A DNA stretch of 56,479 nt. Source: a virus (Duplodnaviria > Caudoviricetes). The stretch spans positions 1 to 56,479 of IMG/VR virus record IMGVR_UViG_3300044730_001415; one strand, 5' to 3'. The notes below the pieces were generated by a model. The model was not told the DNA's origin, did no database searches, and worked only from the letters and a program-made list of their open reading frames with translations. The position numbers were made by a program, and so were the translations under genes. Each line of letters opens with the position of its first letter. Position 1 is the stretch's first letter. Below are positions 49,974 to 54,268 of this stretch, piece by piece.

Positions 49974-50291
49974 ATGGAAACCGACGACAATATCTTTACT
50001 AATTTTGTGCGCAAGCCTTTCTGCGTTCAAGCGGTTCAGATTACTGCTGAAAACATTGCTGCGTTAGCGCCCCACCTTGGTGAGCTTAAGGAAAAGGACG
50101 GCGAGCTTTCGATTTTAATCGATCGTCGAATCGTCCCGAACATCAAAAAGGCATACATCAACTGGTGGGTAACAAAGCTTGACGACAACCTTCGGTGTTA
50201 TTCTCCCAAAGTGTTTGAAAAGGAGTTCACCACTTACGATGAGGCTTGGGATGGTTATTTCAACGCGCTAGGCGACCAGTTCGCTGACTAA
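49974..50291 (+). CDS. hypothetical protein; divergent paralog of 55986-56327
   Basis: FVRKPFCVQAVQ.T.EN...WWVTK...RCYSPKVFEKEF. Confidence 0.6.
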   Translation: METDDNIFTNFVRKPFCVQAVQITAENIAALAPHLGELKEKDGELSILIDRRIVPNIKKAYINWWVTKLDDNLRCYSPKVFEKEFTTYDEAWDGYFNALGDQFAD

Positions 50292-50899: not shown

Positions 50900-51397
50900 A
50901 TGAACAGACAAGTGTTTGTAATCCCACACGATCAATTCGAAGAAGTTGATCACCCCGAAGAAGTCACAGAGCAATCGCTTCTTTCAGTTGTTCGATGCCT
51001 CGTTGCAGAAAGTCCTGAAAAAAAGCGAATTAGCTACCCGGCCTTCTACGCAATTCCGCTGGACATCGATCAGAAACCGATCGGCGAAACGCATAGCATC
51101 TATCCCGGCGACGTGGATGACCGCTATAAAACATTCATGGAAGTGCTCGACAACGCCTGCTACATCAGTGGCTTGTTCAAAAGAATGTACGGGTTCGGCG
51201 AGGATAACGACCCTGTGATCGACAGCTTTGTCTACGTCGTTTCCACGCAGTACGGTTTTGATATTCACGACATGCGAGCTCTGAGTTTGGCGCTAACGTG
51301 TATGAATGCGATTCCGGATAACGTCCACATCTCGGCGTTTGTTGTATCGACGGACATTGATTTCTACATCATCCCGTCATTTACGTCGTTGACGTAG
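50900..51397 (+). CDS. hypothetical protein
   Basis: AAGGAG RBS, 165 aa. Confidence 0.65.
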   Translation: MNRQVFVIPHDQFEEVDHPEEVTEQSLLSVVRCLVAESPEKKRISYPAFYAIPLDIDQKPIGETHSIYPGDVDDRYKTFMEVLDNACYISGLFKRMYGFGEDNDPVIDSFVYVVSTQYGFDIHDMRALSLALTCMNAIPDNVHISAFVVSTDIDFYIIPSFTSLT

Positions 51398-51406
51398 TAA
51401 TGGTTC

Positions 51407-51490
51407 GGAAGCTAGCATGGTGCCAGATGTGACAAACCACTTGAGTTGTCAAAGAACAACATCTGATGGGTTCGATTCCCTAAGCTTCCA
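51407..51490 (+). ncRNA. tRNA-like element (non-canonical)
   Basis: Acceptor GGAAGCT/AGCTTCC-A, GGG-TTCGATT-CCC T-arm, minimal D-arm, elongated CAGATGT/ACATCTG stem in place of an anticodon arm. Confidence 0.6.
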
Positions 51491-51500
51491 CTGAAATCTA

Positions 51501-51595
51501 GTTGGTCAAGTGTCGGTAAAGGTCATATTCCGCTTACGAACTACGTAGCGCACGACGTAGGAGTGATGGCACTATATAGGGTATGACTACCAACA
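51501..51595 (+). ncRNA. candidate pseudoknotted RNA
   Basis: GTTGGT/ACCAAC; AGTGTCG/TGGCACT crossing GTCATATTC/GGGTATGAC; inner CTACGT/ACGTAG. Confidence 0.45.
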
Positions 51596-51623
51596 CATTT
51601 TCAAAACTAATCAAAGGAGAAGC

Positions 51624-51836
51624 ATGAAGCAAATTGTCCAAGACACGCTGGTGTACATCGTTGAGTTTGAGCAGCTTCCAAAACTCCCGATCGCCGCCAA
51701 TGATGAAAGTGAAGTTCCGTACGCAATGGCTCTTCAAAACGCCATTGAAGTTGGCATCATAACCAAGGGTGGAAAGTACGGAATTCACATAAACCCAAAC
51801 TCGATGAGTTACATGGTTTATGCAATCGTCGACTGA
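51624..51836 (+). CDS. hypothetical protein
   Basis: AAGGAG RBS; its stop codon lies inside the P1 loop of pistol 1. Confidence 0.65.
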   Translation: MKQIVQDTLVYIVEFEQLPKLPIAANDESEVPYAMALQNAIEVGIITKGGKYGIHINPNSMSYMVYAIVD

Positions 51837-52046
51837 GCGACGTTAAATAGGCCTTTAGGCTCAGAGCGGTATCCCAGGAAGCTGTTCCGTATGACAGCGG
51901 GTTTTTAAGACGTAAAATCTCAACATAGGCAGGACTCTTTGCGTACACGTCGCGAAATCAGCATGAGAGAAAGTAACCGAGAAACTGACTTAACTACGTA
52001 AATTTAGAGTGCGCACTCTTTAGACTCGTAGCTGGGATACATAGGT
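51827..52046 (+). ncRNA. pistol-type self-cleaving ribozyme 1 with ~154-nt insert in the P3 loop
   Basis: CGTCG-ACTGAG-CGACG-TTAAATAG-GCCT-TTAGG-CTCAGA-GCG-GTATCCCAG ... CTGGGATAC-AT-AGGT; same register as the env25 pistol as recalled. Confidence 0.8.
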
Positions 52047-52049
52047 AAC

Positions 52050-52231
52050 CGTCGACTGAGCGACGTTAAACAGGCCTTTAGGCTCAGAGCGGTGTGGGTT
52101 GTGTTCGTAGCACATAAAGCAGATAAGAGGACCGACAGGCGTTAGCAAACGCTTATGGTTTCCGGCATATCATCCTTGGTTTGATATGTACGAGGGATAC
52201 TACGAGTTACCCCTGCTTCCCACACATAGGC
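52050..52231 (+). ncRNA. pistol-type self-cleaving ribozyme 2 with ~120-nt insert in the P3 loop
   Basis: Same 42-nt core (one T>C change); P3 GTGTGGG/CCCACAC; AT; AGGC pairs with GCCT. Confidence 0.82.
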
Positions 52232-52612
52232 ATTCCGTATTCGTGTTGCAATGACGGTTGCAACAAATATGGTAAGATATTCTAGGTGTCCCTGGTATAG
52301 CGCCTAGAATCAAAGCCTTTATTATACCAGTAGGTGTCCAATACGCCTAAACCAAGCCGATCGCGACGGCAATTGGAACCGCGATACTCAGGCGGTATAG
52401 CTTACGGCGTTTCCCGTAAGACACCACTTTGGTGAAATGTAGAGCGGCGTCGACGGTACGCGGCAGCAGAAAACCGGAAGGGAGCCCCAGTCCCCTTATA
52501 CCGAAGCCTTTATGGCAACTGGCGGATCTGTTGAAAAACAGACAGAGTATTGAGCGCGCTGACAGATGATTTACCTCCTTTAATCGTCTGTCGGCGCTGC
52601 TCTACTTTGTGT
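52232..52612 (+). ncRNA. large multi-pseudoknot noncoding RNA candidate
   Basis: ORF-free; consecutive hairpins, three loop-downstream pairings, and a terminal long hairpin with loop TACCTCCTTT. Confidence 0.62.
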
Positions 52613-52619
52613 ATTTTTC

Positions 52620-52692
52620 GCCTCTTTAGCTCAGTCGGTAGAGCAGTGGACTTTTAATCCATTGGTCGTGGGTTCGAACCCCACAGGAGGCA
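52620..52692 (+). tRNA. tRNA-Lys(UUU)
   Basis: GCCTCTT/AGGAGGC acceptor; GTGGA-CTTTTAA-TCCAT; GGTTCGAACC; no encoded CCA. Confidence 0.92.
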
Positions 52693-52723
52693 CTCACCAA
52701 CCACAACAGAAAGGAACGAACGC

Positions 52724-52906
52724 ATGGTTCGTTTTTACGCCCCGGCAAATCTTTGGATTTCCTCCAGAAATCGCGACGACCAGGGAATGCCATCCGGAAA
52801 TTTGGATGGGCATATCTGGGCGGACGTCTGTCAGTGCGTCGAATGTAAAGACGCATACGTTTCGTCCTCTGGAGTAAACATCCAAAATGTTCGAGACTTG
52901 AAATAG
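52724..52906 (+). CDS. small CxxC protein
   Basis: AAGGA upstream; VCQCVEC. Confidence 0.5.
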   Translation: MVRFYAPANLWISSRNRDDQGMPSGNLDGHIWADVCQCVECKDAYVSSSGVNIQNVRDLK

Positions 52907-52912
52907 TCTCGC

Positions 52913-52939
52913 AAACCTGAGCATGTTTTAAAACTGCTC
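52913..52939 (+). other. 27-nt H-type pseudoknot motif
   Basis: AAAC-CTGAGCAT-GTTT-TAAAAC-TGCTC. Confidence 0.7.
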
Positions 52940-52967
52940 ACTCACCAACCACAACCAAGGAGGAGTA

Positions 52968-53165
52968 ATGAAAGCCATCAACATCAACCGGACAACTCAG
53001 CGTTATATTGCTGAGATGTACAACGAAGGGGTTGTGCCTCAGATAGAAGTGGAACCAACGTACTATATCGTTGTTGATGACGGTCCAAATCTGATCGTCG
53101 ACAGACACGAGTACGTTCGCGTCTGGAAAGACAAAGTCGACGTGGACATCATCGCGGTTGTCTGA
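52968..53165 (+). CDS. hypothetical protein
   Basis: AGGAGG RBS. Confidence 0.7.
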   Translation: MKAININRTTQRYIAEMYNEGVVPQIEVEPTYYIVVDDGPNLIVDRHEYVRVWKDKVDVDIIAVV

Positions 53166-53172
53166 GGTTTTG

Positions 53173-53199
53173 GAACCTGAGCATGTTTTAAAACTGCTC
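53173..53199 (+). other. 27-nt H-type pseudoknot motif
   Basis: GAAC-CTGAGCAT-GTTT-TAAAAC-TGCTC. Confidence 0.7.
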
Positions 53200-53253
53200 T
53201 CTTTTTCTTGTTGCACTTAATACCTAATCAACCCAAACAGGAGGAAACACCCA

Positions 53254-53547
53254 ATGGCCATTCCCGAGAACTTCGTGTTCATGAAGAACCCGCCAACAAA
53301 TAAAAGAGGTACCAAGAGCAAGTACGAATCCATTGCGGACGCCTGCCGACGGCATCCCAACATGTGGACTGTCTTCAACACTGACGTCAGCTACGGAATG
53401 ACCACTGCCTTCAAAAAGCAGTTCCCCGGGTTCGAGTTCACGTCAAGAGCAAACCCGCCTGACGGCAACCGCACTACGGTGACCATCTACGGTCGATTTG
53501 TCGAAGAAGTCGACCTAGAACTGGAAGCGCTGCTGGACGAGGAATAA
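53254..53547 (+). CDS. hypothetical protein (possible DNA-binding)
   Basis: AGGAGG RBS; SKYESIA..C..HP..W...GFEFTSR...IYGRFV. Confidence 0.7.
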   Translation: MAIPENFVFMKNPPTNKRGTKSKYESIADACRRHPNMWTVFNTDVSYGMTTAFKKQFPGFEFTSRANPPDGNRTTVTIYGRFVEEVDLELEALLDEE

Positions 53548-53554
53548 ATCTCGA

Positions 53555-53581
53555 AAACCTGAGCATGTTTTAAAACTGCTC
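53555..53581 (+). other. 27-nt H-type pseudoknot motif
   Basis: AAAC-CTGAGCAT-GTTT-TAAAAC-TGCTC, 4 nt before tRNA-Ile. Confidence 0.7.
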
Positions 53582-53585
53582 GCCC

Positions 53586-53659
53586 ATCCCCATAGCTCAG
53601 TTGGTTAGAGCAGCATCCTTATAAGATGCAGGTCACGGGTTCAAGCCCCGTTGGGGATA
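53586..53659 (+). tRNA. tRNA-Ile(UAU)
   Basis: ATCCCCA/TGGGGAT acceptor; GCATC-CTTATAA-GATGC; ACGGG-TTCAAGC-CCCGT. Confidence 0.88.
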
Positions 53660-53663
53660 CTGA

Positions 53664-53734
53664 AAGTAAAAATCGTGGGTGCTACGTCGACGAGACCGTA
53701 CAGTCTGGTAAAAAACAGTCAGGCCACCCACACA
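53664..53734 (+). repeat. 71-bp direct repeat copy 1 (three-way-junction RNA candidate)
   Basis: Two differences from 54198-54268; GTGGGTG/CACCCAC closing stem. Confidence 0.85.
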
Positions 53735-53752: not shown

Positions 53753-54199
53753 ATGAAGCTTAACGTGTTCAAGTACATCAAAGAAGTTCTTGATGAGAAC
53801 CACGACGATGGTACCATCGTAGAAAACGTAGAAAAGCTCGAGAGTTCGGTAATTGGTCGCCGGATTGTTTCTGCAGAACGCCAACAGATCAAATCGCGGG
53901 GTTCTTACTGGAGAACAGGATCAACAGTCTTTGTGATCACTCTTGATAATGGCGATCAAGTGCAGTTATTTGATACAGCAGATTGCTGCGCATACACGAC
54001 TCTTGAAAACTTTCTTCTTCACCCGCAAAGCGTTGACCACGTCATTCTTGGTGTTGGTACGACCGAAAAGTACACGACTTGGCATATCTATGCTGATTTT
54101 GGTGACATTCTTGCGCTTGAGGTTGATTGGTCTTGCGGTAATCCGTTTTACTACGGTTACGGCTTTGACATCAACGTTGTGAGTACGTCGTTCAGTTAA
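53753..54199 (+). CDS. hypothetical protein
   Basis: AAGGAG RBS before ATG 53753; DCCA...NPFYYGYGF; flanked by the direct repeats. Confidence 0.75.
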   Translation: MKLNVFKYIKEVLDENHDDGTIVENVEKLESSVIGRRIVSAERQQIKSRGSYWRTGSTVFVITLDNGDQVQLFDTADCCAYTTLENFLLHPQSVDHVILGVGTTEKYTTWHIYADFGDILALEVDWSCGNPFYYGYGFDINVVSTSFS

Positions 54200-54268
54200 G
54201 TAAAGATCGTGGGTGCTACGTCGACGAGACCGTACAGTCTGGTAAAAAACAGTCAGACCACCCACACA
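54198..54268 (+). repeat. 71-bp direct repeat copy 2
   Basis: Matches 53664-53734 at 69 of 71 positions. Confidence 0.85.

What the first reader, a model, noticed from the sequence alone, without database searches (positions are those of the whole stretch)
52232..52619. ~390-nt unknown multi-pseudoknot RNA bracketed by a ribozyme cut and a tRNA
Seen: the stretch has no ORF and is almost continuously pairable. It has a hairpin at 52235-52272. A hairpin ATTCTAGGTG/CGCCTAGAAT (52279-52310) has loop CTGGTATA complementary to TATACCAG (52323-30). A hairpin TAGGTGT/ACGCCTA has loop CCAAT complementary to ATTGG (52372). A hairpin GCCG/CGGC has loop ATCGCG complementary to CGCGAT (52380-85), giving interlocked pseudoknots. 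A multibranch domain is closed by CGGTATAG/TTATACCG (52393-52503). Inference: pistol 2 would make the 5' end and RNase P processing of tRNA-Lys (52620) the 3' end, releasing a discrete RNA. Knowledge: large tRNA-adjacent phage RNAs such as GOLLD and ROOL exist, but I cannot match this one to them by eye.
Basis: partly seen in the sequence, partly recalled or inferred. Interest (0 to 1): 0.82.

Follow-up and report, generated by a model that had tools for sequence, protein, structure and literature searches.

The report
Structured phage RNA between ribozyme, tRNA
A freshwater phage carries a roughly 390-base, tightly folded non-coding RNA of no known family, set between a self-cleaving ribozyme and a tRNA gene; matching mutations in a relative preserve part of its fold, but its job is unknown.

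Summary
The feature is real. Window 52227-52619 (+) lies between a pistol ribozyme and tRNA-Lys, both confirmed by Rfam and ARAGORN. It folds far better than shuffles (z -5.8) and matches no Rfam family at E<=10. Stored collections hold only one other sequence variant, identical on three contigs. Against it, 5 base pairs change on both sides and stay paired: 4 in the first pseudoknot and 1 in its hairpin. The other two proposed pseudoknots never vary, have competing folds, and remain unproven. Pistol 2 has a 120-nt insert in P3 and an A-U cut site. The close relatives lack pistol 2 and use pistol 1 instead. Related phages share the layout of replication genes, long-P3 pistol and long non-coding stretch, but hold unrelated RNA there. 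Best reading (0.5): a discrete, processed, structured phage RNA of a new family in a tRNA island. Processing, stability and function are inferred, not shown.

The parts
51827..52046 (+). Pistol ribozyme 1 with a 154-nt insert in P3. Core 51827-51868; P3 5' strand 51869-77; insert 51878-52031; P3 3' strand 52032-40; junction A52041|U52042 (predicted cut); P2 3' strand AGGU 52043-46. The stop codon of ORF 51624-51836 lies in the P1 loop.
   Evidence: Rfam RF02679, 41.4 bits, gathering 34.5. Long-range P3, 2-nt junction and P2 closure found by script. 95% identical in relatives.
52050..52231 (+). Pistol ribozyme 2 with a 120-nt insert in P3. Core 52050-52091; P3 5' strand 52092-98; insert 52099-52218; P3 3' strand 52219-25; junction A52226|U52227 (predicted cut); P2 3' strand AGGC 52228-31. 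This whole module is absent from the L032-type relatives.
   Evidence: Rfam 44.7 bits. In Rfam's own alignment of P3, four pairs are non-canonical. The long-range P3 gives 7/7 pairs and P2 4/4. Module absent in relatives. Run X3 has a contig spanning 52064-52381.
52227..52619 (+). The structured non-coding RNA as predicted after processing: 393 nt, 5'-OH at U52227, 3' end at C52619 next to tRNA-Lys.
   Evidence: Fold statistics; no Rfam family; 92% identical in relatives from 52257 onward.
52235..52272 (+). H1: outer stem CCGUAUU/AAUAUGG enclosing an inner 9-bp hairpin. The inner hairpin is missing in L032.
   Evidence: L032 has CCAUAU/AUAUGG, read from the alignment. An RNA-library contig's loose end reads CCAUAAU..AUUAUGG. 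52237 G>A turns G.U into A-U.
52279..52330 (+). H2 (52279-88 with 52301-10) plus pseudoknot PK1 (loop 52292-99 with 52323-30): an H-type pseudoknot with connecting loops of 3, 1 and 12 nt.
   Evidence: H2 has 1 pair and PK1 has 4 of 8 pairs changed on both sides and still paired. This segment is only 73% identical between the variants.
52331..52396 (+). Conserved core: H3 (52331-49), H4 (52356-70), candidate pairings CCAAU/AUUGG and AUCGCG/CGCGAU, and the competing hairpin ACCGC/GCGGU (52378-96). The H4 loop holds the 6-nt palindrome UCGCGA.
   Evidence: 97% identical between variants. RNA-library contigs align over only 52317-52399, with unlike flanks.
52393..52527 (+). Central multi-helix domain: possible closing helix 52393-52400/52496-52503, H5a 52401-20, H5b 52422-34, AAGGG/CCCUU 52478-97, GCC/GGC 52506-16.
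   Evidence: One-sided changes keep pairing: 52419 A>G gives U.G, and a 3-nt insertion falls in the H5b loop. 52498 and 52500 A>G both lie opposite U. 52503 G>A breaks the end pair.
52528..52619 (+). 3' domain: small hairpin 52528-41; long hairpin H7 52542-52610 (28 pairs); 10-12-nt loop holding ACCUCCUUU (52573-81); tail GUAUUUUUC running up to the tRNA.
   Evidence: -40.7 kcal/mol, z -11.2. 52593 G>A turns U.G into U-A. The 9-mer occurs twice in the window against 0.62 expected.
52620..52693 (+). tRNA-Lys (anticodon UUU), the first of four canonical tRNAs. Its 5' maturation by RNase P would set the 3' end of the RNA.
   Evidence: ARAGORN; Rfam tRNA, 75.9 bits.

Best explanation
Window 52227-52619 encodes a discrete, highly structured non-coding RNA of a previously undescribed family. 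It belongs to a freshwater phage whose host is probably an actinobacterium. The RNA is transcribed on the + strand together with the upstream genes and the downstream tRNA island.

Its 5' end would be made by self-cleavage of the pistol ribozyme just upstream: A52226|U52227 here, or the equivalent cut of pistol 1 in relatives. That leaves a 5'-hydroxyl. Its 3' end would be made when RNase P matures tRNA-Lys at G52620, possibly helped by partial termination at the long 3' hairpin.

The RNA has three parts. The first is a 5' hairpin plus a classical H-type pseudoknot that varies fast but keeps its pairing. The second is a nearly invariant core (52331-52400) and a multi-helix middle. The third is a 28-bp hairpin that displays an anti-Shine-Dalgarno-like loop.

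Shown: the flanking elements, the thermodynamic signal, compensatory change in H1, H2 and PK1, the absence of any known family, and the presence of the sequence in RNA libraries. Inferred: cleavage, release, stability and any action in trans. My most likely mode of action, held weakly, is that it acts as a free folded RNA like other large RNAs of phage tRNA islands, and that the exposed C-rich loop pairs with Shine-Dalgarno regions or mimics the 16S rRNA 3' end.
For: - Flanks: pistol at 44.7 and 41.4 bits (gathering 34.5), tRNA-Lys at 75.9 bits.
- Pistol geometry: P3 7/7, a 2-nt junction, P2 4/4. Harris et al. 2015 (PMC4604425, passages read) say the GU junction 'varies somewhat' while its length is strictly conserved, and that constructs with the P3 loop deleted cleave.
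- Among 16 distinct pistols of this subtype, the script found junction AU in 7 and GU in 7. It picked a doubtful helix in 1 and none in 1. P3 inserts are 39-154 nt in 12 of the 15 resolved.
- Fold: z -5.83, 0 of 100 shuffles; z -3.13 without H7.
- Strand: the + strand folds better than the - strand. At least 8 G.U pairs in the proposed helices would be A.C mismatches on the other strand (read).
- Covariation: 5 pairs changed on both sides and kept, against 0-2 in slid controls; 98.1% of 104 cells paired. 10 of the 20 mismatches in 52257-52330 sit in compensatory pairs.
- A third variant seen in runs X3 (DNA) and X22 (RNA library) has 7 substitutions in H1, H2 and the closing helix. Five keep pairing and 2 break terminal pairs.
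- Contigs from RNA libraries of 3 runs in 2 studies contain 52265-52486, 52317-52399, 52330-52477, 51845-51972 and 51907-52045.
- No Rfam family at E<=10.
Against: - No transcript end, cleavage product or expression level was observed. The laid runs are contigs, and the tool warns that DNA can be present in RNA libraries.
- One RNA-library contig runs across the predicted pistol 1 cut site, 51907-52045 plus 71 further letters. So uncleaved RNA or DNA is present.
- Only two distinct sequences exist in the stored collections. The covariation therefore rests on one comparison, and the shuffle control cannot go below 25 of 500.
- From 52331 onward the two variants are 97.6% identical, so most helices there are untested.
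- The family is narrow. A model of the core found nothing in 512 kb of related loci.
- Related phages carry unrelated sequence in the same place, followed by protein genes. That fits a leader or spacer role as well as a free RNA.
- The anti-Shine-Dalgarno loop is a post hoc observation. The 9-mer also occurs once elsewhere in the window.
Confidence: 0.5

Rival explanations
1. It is a cis-acting structured leader or spacer of the downstream operon (tRNA-Lys, small ORFs, further tRNAs) rather than an RNA with its own job. The pistol cut gives the downstream transcript a 5'-OH end buried in stable structure, which protects it from 5'-end-dependent decay. The piece is discarded once RNase P frees the tRNA.
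For: - In syntenic relatives, the stretch after the long-P3 pistol is 300-650 nt of non-coding sequence that runs into a CA-rich leader, a strong ribosome-binding site and a protein gene.
- The sequence in that position is not conserved between lineages. That is expected if only generic properties matter.
- The same CA-rich leader follows tRNA-Lys here (CACTCACCAACCACAAC).
Against: - A simple 5' hairpin is enough for stabilisation in known cases (recalled).
- Here a pseudoknot is kept by four double changes, and a 70-nt core is 97% conserved beside a 73% segment. That points to a specific fold.
- RNase P would in any case cut the piece away from what it is meant to protect.
Confidence: 0.25
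2. It is a riboswitch-like or attenuator element. The conserved pseudoknotted core (about 52317-52400) senses a ligand or factor. It then decides whether the long 3' hairpin plus U-run (52542-52619) terminates transcription before the tRNA island.
For: - A diverged variant keeps only 52317-52399 and has unlike flanks, which is the pattern of a conserved aptamer with a variable platform.
- H7 is followed by UAUUUUU.
- CGAUACUC (52382-89) can pair with GAGUAUUG (52545-52), the foot of H7. I read this from the sequence.
Against: - About 140 nt separate the core from H7.
- The simple terminator scan did not call H7.
- The 8-bp alternative pairing is within chance for regions of this size (my estimate).
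- No known riboswitch family matches.
- A tRNA gene 9 nt after a terminator, with no room for a promoter, argues for read-through as the normal state.
Confidence: 0.08
3. The signal works at the DNA level or has no function. It could be a replication or packaging element in single-stranded DNA next to the replication module, or simply a mosaic junction rich in hairpins.
For: - The stretch lies about 3.3 kb downstream of the SSB gene, which follows the primase-polymerase gene.
- It is a recombination boundary. Pistol 2 is present or absent, and the ORF after the tRNA is only 38.6% identical in relatives whose other genes are 92-99% identical.
Against: - Non-nested compensatory changes (PK1) and many G.U pairs specific to the + strand fit a transcribed RNA.
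- It is bracketed by two RNA-processing signals on the same strand.
- The sequence is found in RNA libraries.
Confidence: 0.07

Closest known systems
ROOL and GOLLD RNAs (large ornate RNAs of phages and prophages)
   Same: Large non-coding RNAs with many helices and pseudoknots, encoded by phages, 'often near tRNA islands', function unknown. The description comes from bioRxiv 10.1101/2024.12.08.627333, passages read.
   Different: - No match to either Rfam model at E<=10.
- Shorter: 393 nt, against more than 800 nt for many GOLLD RNAs. ROOL is about 580 nt as I recall.
- Preceded by a self-cleaving ribozyme.
- Known so far from one phage lineage with two sequence variants.
- Multimer formation is untested.
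Pistol self-cleaving ribozyme (Rfam RF02679), as the processing element
   Same: P1, the P1-loop pseudoknot, the conserved core, P2, P3 and a 2-nt junction are all present in both copies.
   Different: - P3 carries inserts of 154 and 120 nt, so Rfam's own alignment of the 3' half is wrong.
- The cut-site dinucleotide is A-U rather than G-U.
- The ribozyme is not the finding itself. It only sets the 5' end.
Theta (HDV-like) ribozymes next to phage tRNAs
   Same: A small self-cleaving ribozyme is used together with tRNA genes in phage genomes (Nat Commun 2024, PMC10879173; search listing and abstract only).
   Different: - A different ribozyme class.
- Theta ribozymes sit adjacent to viral tRNAs (abstract of the 2023 bioRxiv version), whereas the pistol here is 393 nt upstream of the tRNA, with a structured RNA in between.
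'Family F': the conserved RNA motif after long-P3 pistols in related phage contigs (L041-L046, L049, L051, L057)
   Same: Same genomic position: after the primase-polymerase, SSB and a homolog of ORF 49974-50291. It also sits directly behind a long-P3 pistol.
   Different: - No sequence or model similarity. Model R2 scores 51-76 bits on its 9 members and 1.1 bits on the window.
- Family F is followed by protein genes, not directly by a tRNA.
- Family F itself matches no Rfam family at gathering scores.
Small stable RNAs co-transcribed with the phage T4 tRNA cluster; C-rich-loop regulatory RNAs of Gram-positive bacteria (RsaE/RoxS, 6C)
   Same: The T4 RNAs are of unknown function and are excised from a tRNA precursor. 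In the C-rich-loop RNAs, hairpin loops pair with Shine-Dalgarno regions. Both are recalled, not tested here.
   Different: Those RNAs are 100-200 nt and lack a ribozyme-made end. No homology was tested beyond the Rfam scan.

Membership tests
Pistol ribozyme (flanking element, copy 2) | Rfam covariance model score at or above the gathering score | tested here: met
   44.7 bits against 34.5; copy 1 scores 41.4.
Pistol ribozyme (flanking element, copy 2) | P3 helix, then a junction of exactly 2 nt, then the P2 3' strand pairing with the P2 5' strand | tested here: met
   GUGUGGG/CCCACAC 7/7, junction AU, AGGC with GCCU 4/4, with a 120-nt insert in P3. The rule on junction length is from PMC4604425, passages read.
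Pistol ribozyme (flanking element, copy 2) | G-U dinucleotide at the cut site | tested here: not met
   A-U in both copies. The papers call this dinucleotide only 'modestly conserved'. 7 of 16 distinct pistols of this subtype have A-U.
Pistol ribozyme (flanking element, copy 2) | Self-cleavage giving 2',3'-cyclic phosphate and 5'-OH ends | not testable with these tools
   Needs an in vitro cleavage assay.
GOLLD / ROOL | Match to the Rfam covariance model of the family | tested here: not met
   No hit at E<=10 with permissive filters on 5,080 nt and on 411 nt.
GOLLD / ROOL | Phage-encoded, large, pseudoknotted, near a tRNA island | tested here: met
   Phage record; four tRNAs plus one tRNA-like element within 4 kb; PK1. 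This is a resemblance in kind, not membership.
tmRNA | tRNA-like domain with tag reading frame, as detected by ARAGORN or the Rfam tmRNA models | tested here: not met
   ARAGORN reports four tRNAs and no tmRNA. No tmRNA model hit at E<=10.
Other known structured RNAs in Rfam 15 (RNase P RNA, group I/II introns, riboswitches, 6S and so on) | Any Rfam model at E<=10 | tested here: not met
   Only hairpin-type chance hits on H7, at 15-20 bits against gathering scores of 45-67.
Family F (pistol-associated motif of related phages) | Match to model R2, built from its 9 members | tested here: not met
   Best score on window 51800-52700 with filters off is 1.2 bits (E 2.4) on the minus strand. The + strand match inside the RNA (52441-52496) scores 1.1 bits, E 2.5. 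Members score 51-76 bits.

The most novel reading that the evidence does not exclude
Freshwater actinophages of this group keep a fixed 'ribozyme-launched RNA' position behind their replication genes. A pistol ribozyme with a giant P3 insert releases a large cargo RNA with a 5'-OH end, and different lineages have loaded this position with unrelated RNAs. The cargo here is a new class of pseudoknotted RNA. It is freed at its other end by RNase P and acts in trans. It could use its hairpin loop, which copies the 3' end of 16S rRNA, to pair with ribosome-binding sites or to decoy a host factor or nuclease that recognises that rRNA tail. It could also self-assemble through its palindromic loops, as ROOL and GOLLD do.
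Probability: 0.15. Interest if true: 0.85.

Novelty: new variant of a known kind. Interest (0 to 1): 0.66.

Why it matters
Large structured RNAs of phage tRNA islands (ROOL, GOLLD) are among the least understood RNAs. This would add an unrelated, smaller class whose two ends are defined by known RNA-processing signals, so the mature molecule can be predicted to the base and made in vitro directly.

The work also shows that pistol ribozymes, whose biological role is still open, sit in a conserved genomic position in a group of lake phages. There they carry P3 inserts of 39-154 nt and often an A-U cut site, and they head long non-coding stretches. This gives a concrete setting in which to test what pistol ribozymes are for.

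Tried and rejected
**Search for further homologs.**
- Three viral contigs pattern scans from the RNA returned only the two known relatives. One search also gave four GC-rich coding sequences that are not alike.
- One metagenome-contig scan returned two contigs with the same L032-type sequence.
- One genome-contig scan returned nothing.
- blastn and nhmmer against 29 loci around DUF7448 homologs found nothing. Ten of those 29 loci have no tRNA or pistol at all.
- Model R1 of the core (52273-52440) found only its own two training sequences in 50 sources, 511,857 bases, and nothing new in L060.

**Membership in family F.** Rejected. The resemblance of GGCAGCAGAAAACCGG (52462-77) to the family F A-rich motif is not significant.

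**A decayed third pistol at 52496-52516.** Rejected. The local alignment score of 19 is reached by 226 of 500 shuffles.

**GOLLD, ROOL and tmRNA.** No match.

**Parts without cover in the RNA-library contigs** (51000-51809, 52053-52214, 52539-52619, 52701-53400). These cannot be read as absence of transcripts, and I do not use them as evidence.

**Runs with small shares.** Those I did not lay say nothing about habitat.

**Partner side of the H7 changes in the run X3 variant.** Eight of that contig's 20 differences were not listed, so compensation in H7 could not be checked.

**Promoter and terminator scan.** Nothing inside the RNA.

**Papers.** Supplements were not available. The pistol alignments in the supplements of Weinberg et al. 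2015 and Harris et al. 2015 may already contain long-P3 or A-U examples.

**Literature searches that found no description of this RNA or of pistols in actinophages.**; one search gave 0 papers.

Full report
**What the window is.** The window is a whole IMG/VR virus record of 56,479 bases, estimated 94% complete. Nearly all long ORFs lie on the + strand. The large terminase is 78-82% identical to those of Streptomyces, Gordonia and Rhodococcus phages. The only bacterial-genome contig carrying the same pistol subtype is a MAG labelled Marmoricola, phylum Actinomycetota. An actinobacterial host is therefore likely, though inferred. The two runs that hold at least half of the sampled words, and the four runs I laid, are lake or freshwater metagenomes.

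**The brackets.**
- Rfam finds two pistol ribozymes (51827-51879 at 41.4 bits, 52050-52112 at 44.7 bits, gathering score 34.5) and four tRNAs. ARAGORN places tRNA-Lys(UUU) at 52620-52693.
- Rfam aligns only the 5' two-thirds of each pistol well. In copy 2, four of its P3 pairs are non-canonical.
- Reading on, the base after GAGCG opens a helix whose partner lies far downstream. That is GUAUCCCAG (51869-77) with CUGGGAUAC (52032-40) for copy 1, and GUGUGGG (52092-98) with CCCACAC (52219-25) for copy 2.
- Each helix is followed by exactly two bases (AU) and then by AGGU or AGGC, which pairs with the P2 5' strand GCCU.
- This is the pistol architecture with P3 inserts of 154 and 120 nt. Harris et al. 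2015 (PMC4604425, passages read) state that the cut lies in the GU junction between P3 and P2, that its identity 'varies somewhat' while its length is strictly conserved, and that constructs without the P3 loop cleave. The review PMC6154101 (passages) says the same of the junction.
- A scan of IMG/VR for this pistol core gave 20 loci, which with the two copies in the window make 16 distinct pistols. The script found junction GU in 7 and AU in 7. It chose a doubtful helix in one (L044) and none in one (L053). P3 inserts are 39-154 nt in 12 of the 15 resolved.
- The predicted cut of copy 2 is therefore A52226|U52227.

**The observation.**
- The + strand of 52232-52619 folds to -148 kcal/mol against -110.5 +/- 6.4 for shuffles, z -5.83, 0 of 100.
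- Without the 3' hairpin, z is -3.13, 0 of 100. The 3' hairpin alone gives z -11.2.
- The - strand is weaker, at -135.1 kcal/mol.
- Four mechanical ORFs of 33-46 aa overlap the stretch. I saw no ribosome-binding site before them.

**Relatives and covariation.**
- A protein 430 nt upstream (ORF 50900-51397) led to two IMG/VR contigs with 99% identical protein. A metagenome scan added a third contig.
- All carry one identical sequence over the 678 nt compared. So only two distinct variants exist in the stored collections.
- The relatives have pistol 1 and its insert (95% identical). They lack window 52046-52256, which is pistol 2 with its insert. They continue with the RNA at 92.4% identity over 369 nt.
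- Divergence is very uneven: 73% identity in 52257-52330 (20 mismatches) and 97.6% in 52331-52619.
- In the variable part the pairing is kept. On a 172-column alignment with my structure (52 pairs, 8 helices), 98.1% of cells pair. Five pairs changed on both sides and stayed paired. Four are in the pseudoknot CUGGUAUA/UAUACCAG, which becomes CCAGUAAU/AUUACUGG, and one is in its hairpin.
- Structures slid by 1-3 columns give 0-2 such pairs and 30-42% pairing. With two sequences, the shuffle control cannot fall below 25 of 500.
- One-sided changes elsewhere keep pairing: G-C to G.U in H4, U-A to U.G in H5a, U.G to U-A in H7, and a 3-nt insertion in the H5b loop. One change (52503 G>A) breaks the end pair of the proposed closing helix.
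- The outer stem of H1 reads CCGUAUU/AAUAUGG here and CCAUAU/AUAUGG in the relatives. A contig's loose end in run X23 reads CCAUAAU...AUUAUGG.
- A further variant seen in run X3 (DNA) and in part in X22 (RNA library) has seven substitutions in H1, H2 and the closing helix. Five keep pairing and two break terminal pairs.
- That variant also has six substitutions and one insertion on the 5' strand of H7. Eight of the contig's 20 differences were not listed, so compensation there cannot be judged.
- No difference is listed inside the loop core 52573-80.

**What is and is not established about the fold.**
- H1, H2 and PK1 are supported by compensatory change. With connecting loops of 3, 1 and 12 nt, H2 plus PK1 is a sterically ordinary H-type pseudoknot (inference).
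- H3, H5a, H5b and H7 are consistently predicted in both variants and are not contradicted.
- The two further pseudoknots (CCAAU/AUUGG and AUCGCG/CGCGAU) never vary. They compete with CCAA/UUGG, with ACCGC/GCGGU and with a 13-bp long-range pairing. They would use nearly every base of 5- and 7-nt loops. They remain open.
- At least eight G.U pairs in the proposed helices would be A.C mismatches on the - strand (read). This fits an RNA made from the + strand.

**Presence in RNA libraries.** Contigs from three metatranscriptome runs of two studies contain 52265-52486, 52317-52399 (in two runs, depth 16-21, with flanks unlike the window), 52330-52477, and parts of the pistol 1 insert. The tool warns that contigs show presence only and that DNA may be in such libraries. 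One contig crosses the predicted pistol 1 cut. This is compatible with expression but shows neither the ends nor the level.

**Known families.** Nothing in Rfam 15 matches at E<=10, on 5,080 nt or on 411 nt with the most permissive filters. The only hits are hairpin-type chance matches on H7, at 15-20 bits against gathering scores of 45-67. ARAGORN finds no tmRNA.

**The genomic position in related phages.**
- Several of the pistol-bearing contigs are relatives with the same gene order. They have primase-polymerase (63-71% identical in L042, L043, L045, L051), SSB (43-57%), a homolog of ORF 49974-50291 (49-59% in seven loci), the long-P3 pistol, and then 300-650 nt without an ORF. L042 and L043 also have tRNAs 3 kb further on.
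- In nine distinct contigs, that stretch begins with a conserved motif absent from Rfam at gathering scores. The motif is a 5-bp hairpin CUGUG-AAGGAYA-CACAG, then AAAC, a variable hairpin, and an A-rich strand AAACAAAAAAYCG.
- The first hairpin of the motif shows two compensatory pairs.
- A model of this 'family F' scores 51-76 bits on its members. On the window its best + strand match inside the RNA is 1.1 bits.
- The Marmoricola contig has yet another sequence after its pistol.
- So the position is conserved while the RNA in it is not. The family F stretches are not all strongly folded: z -0.38 for L043 and -3.28 for L042.

**How it most likely works.** I commit, at about 0.5, to a discrete processed RNA.
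- Transcription from upstream runs through the pistol.
- Self-cleavage leaves the ribozyme and its insert on the 3' end of the upstream message, and starts the RNA at U52227 with a 5'-OH.
- RNase P cutting at G52620 ends it.
- The kept pseudoknot and the near-invariant core argue for a specific three-dimensional fold with its own function.
- The long hairpin H7 shows ACCUCCUUU in its loop. As I recall, this is the sequence at the 3' end of 16S rRNA, so the loop could pair with ribosome-binding sites or imitate that rRNA tail.
- The H4 loop holds the palindrome UCGCGA, which could allow dimer contacts.
- These last points are leads, not findings. The 9-mer occurs once more in the window.

Rivals are a cis-acting protective leader or spacer (0.25), a riboswitch-like attenuator using H7 (0.08), and a DNA-level or non-functional mosaic (0.07).

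**Novelty and verdict.** The kind is known: a large structured phage RNA of unknown function in a tRNA island. This family, its ribozyme-plus-RNase P bracketing, and the conserved position headed by a long-P3 pistol are not in Rfam. I also did not find them in the papers searched. Supplements, which may list long-P3 pistols, could not be seen. The evidence base is thin (two sequences plus partial variants) and the distribution is narrow.

Noticed in passing
L041:1223-1310, L042:5705-5792, L043:7199-7290, L044:398-495, L045:5345-5428(-), L046:1520-1608(-), L049:8397-8485(-), L051:3484-3568(-), L057:3290-3385(-): A conserved, unnamed RNA motif lies directly after long-P3 pistol ribozymes in nine related phage contigs. 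It consists of a hairpin CUGUG-AAGGAYA-CACAG, then AAAC, a variable hairpin, and an A-rich strand AAACAAAAAAYCG. There is no Rfam family at gathering scores. Model R2 scores 51-76 bits on the members. L041 has a weak second copy at 1672-1750 (12.3 bits).
   Followed up: partly
window 51827-52046 and 52050-52231; loci: Pistol ribozymes of this subtype commonly carry P3 inserts of 39-154 nt. Half have A-U instead of G-U at the cut site. Rfam's model then misaligns their 3' half. Two tandem cuts in the window would release a 185-nt piece (52042-52226) with 5'-OH and cyclic-phosphate ends. The P3 insert of L046 contains a tRNA T-arm-like GGGGUUCGAUUCCCAC.
   Followed up: partly
window 51407-51489 (+): A tRNA-like cloverleaf not called by ARAGORN. 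It has a 7-bp acceptor stem GGAAGCU/AGCUUCC, a T-loop GGGUUCGAUUCCC, and an over-long anticodon arm with an extra hairpin. The Rfam tRNA-Sec model gives 23.5 bits, E 0.27, below gathering.
   Followed up: partly
window 53664-53734 and 54198-54268: A 71-nt direct repeat (97% identical) flanks the DUF7448 ORF. The first copy starts 4 nt after tRNA-Ile; the second lies 80 nt before tRNA-Thr. The fold is weak (z -1.6) and there is no Rfam match.
   Followed up: partly
window 52900-52944, 53160-53204, 53542-53586: Three copies of a 45-nt element with the small hairpin GAGCA-UGUUUUAAAAC-UGCUC lie between small ORFs and directly before tRNA-Ile. They may be processing or termination signals.
   Followed up: no
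window 52691-52707 and 52939-52955: An exact 17-nt repeat CACTCACCAACCACAAC overlaps the last bases of tRNA-Lys (from 52691) and recurs before the next ribosome-binding site. A contig in run X3 joins 52693 to 52951, so a variant may lack ORF 52724-52906. That ORF is only 38.6% identical in the close relatives.
   Followed up: no
L060:956-1560: A 50.6-kb contig of a Marmoricola MAG carries the same pistol subtype. About 500 nt of non-coding sequence follow, unlike both the window RNA and family F.
   Followed up: partly
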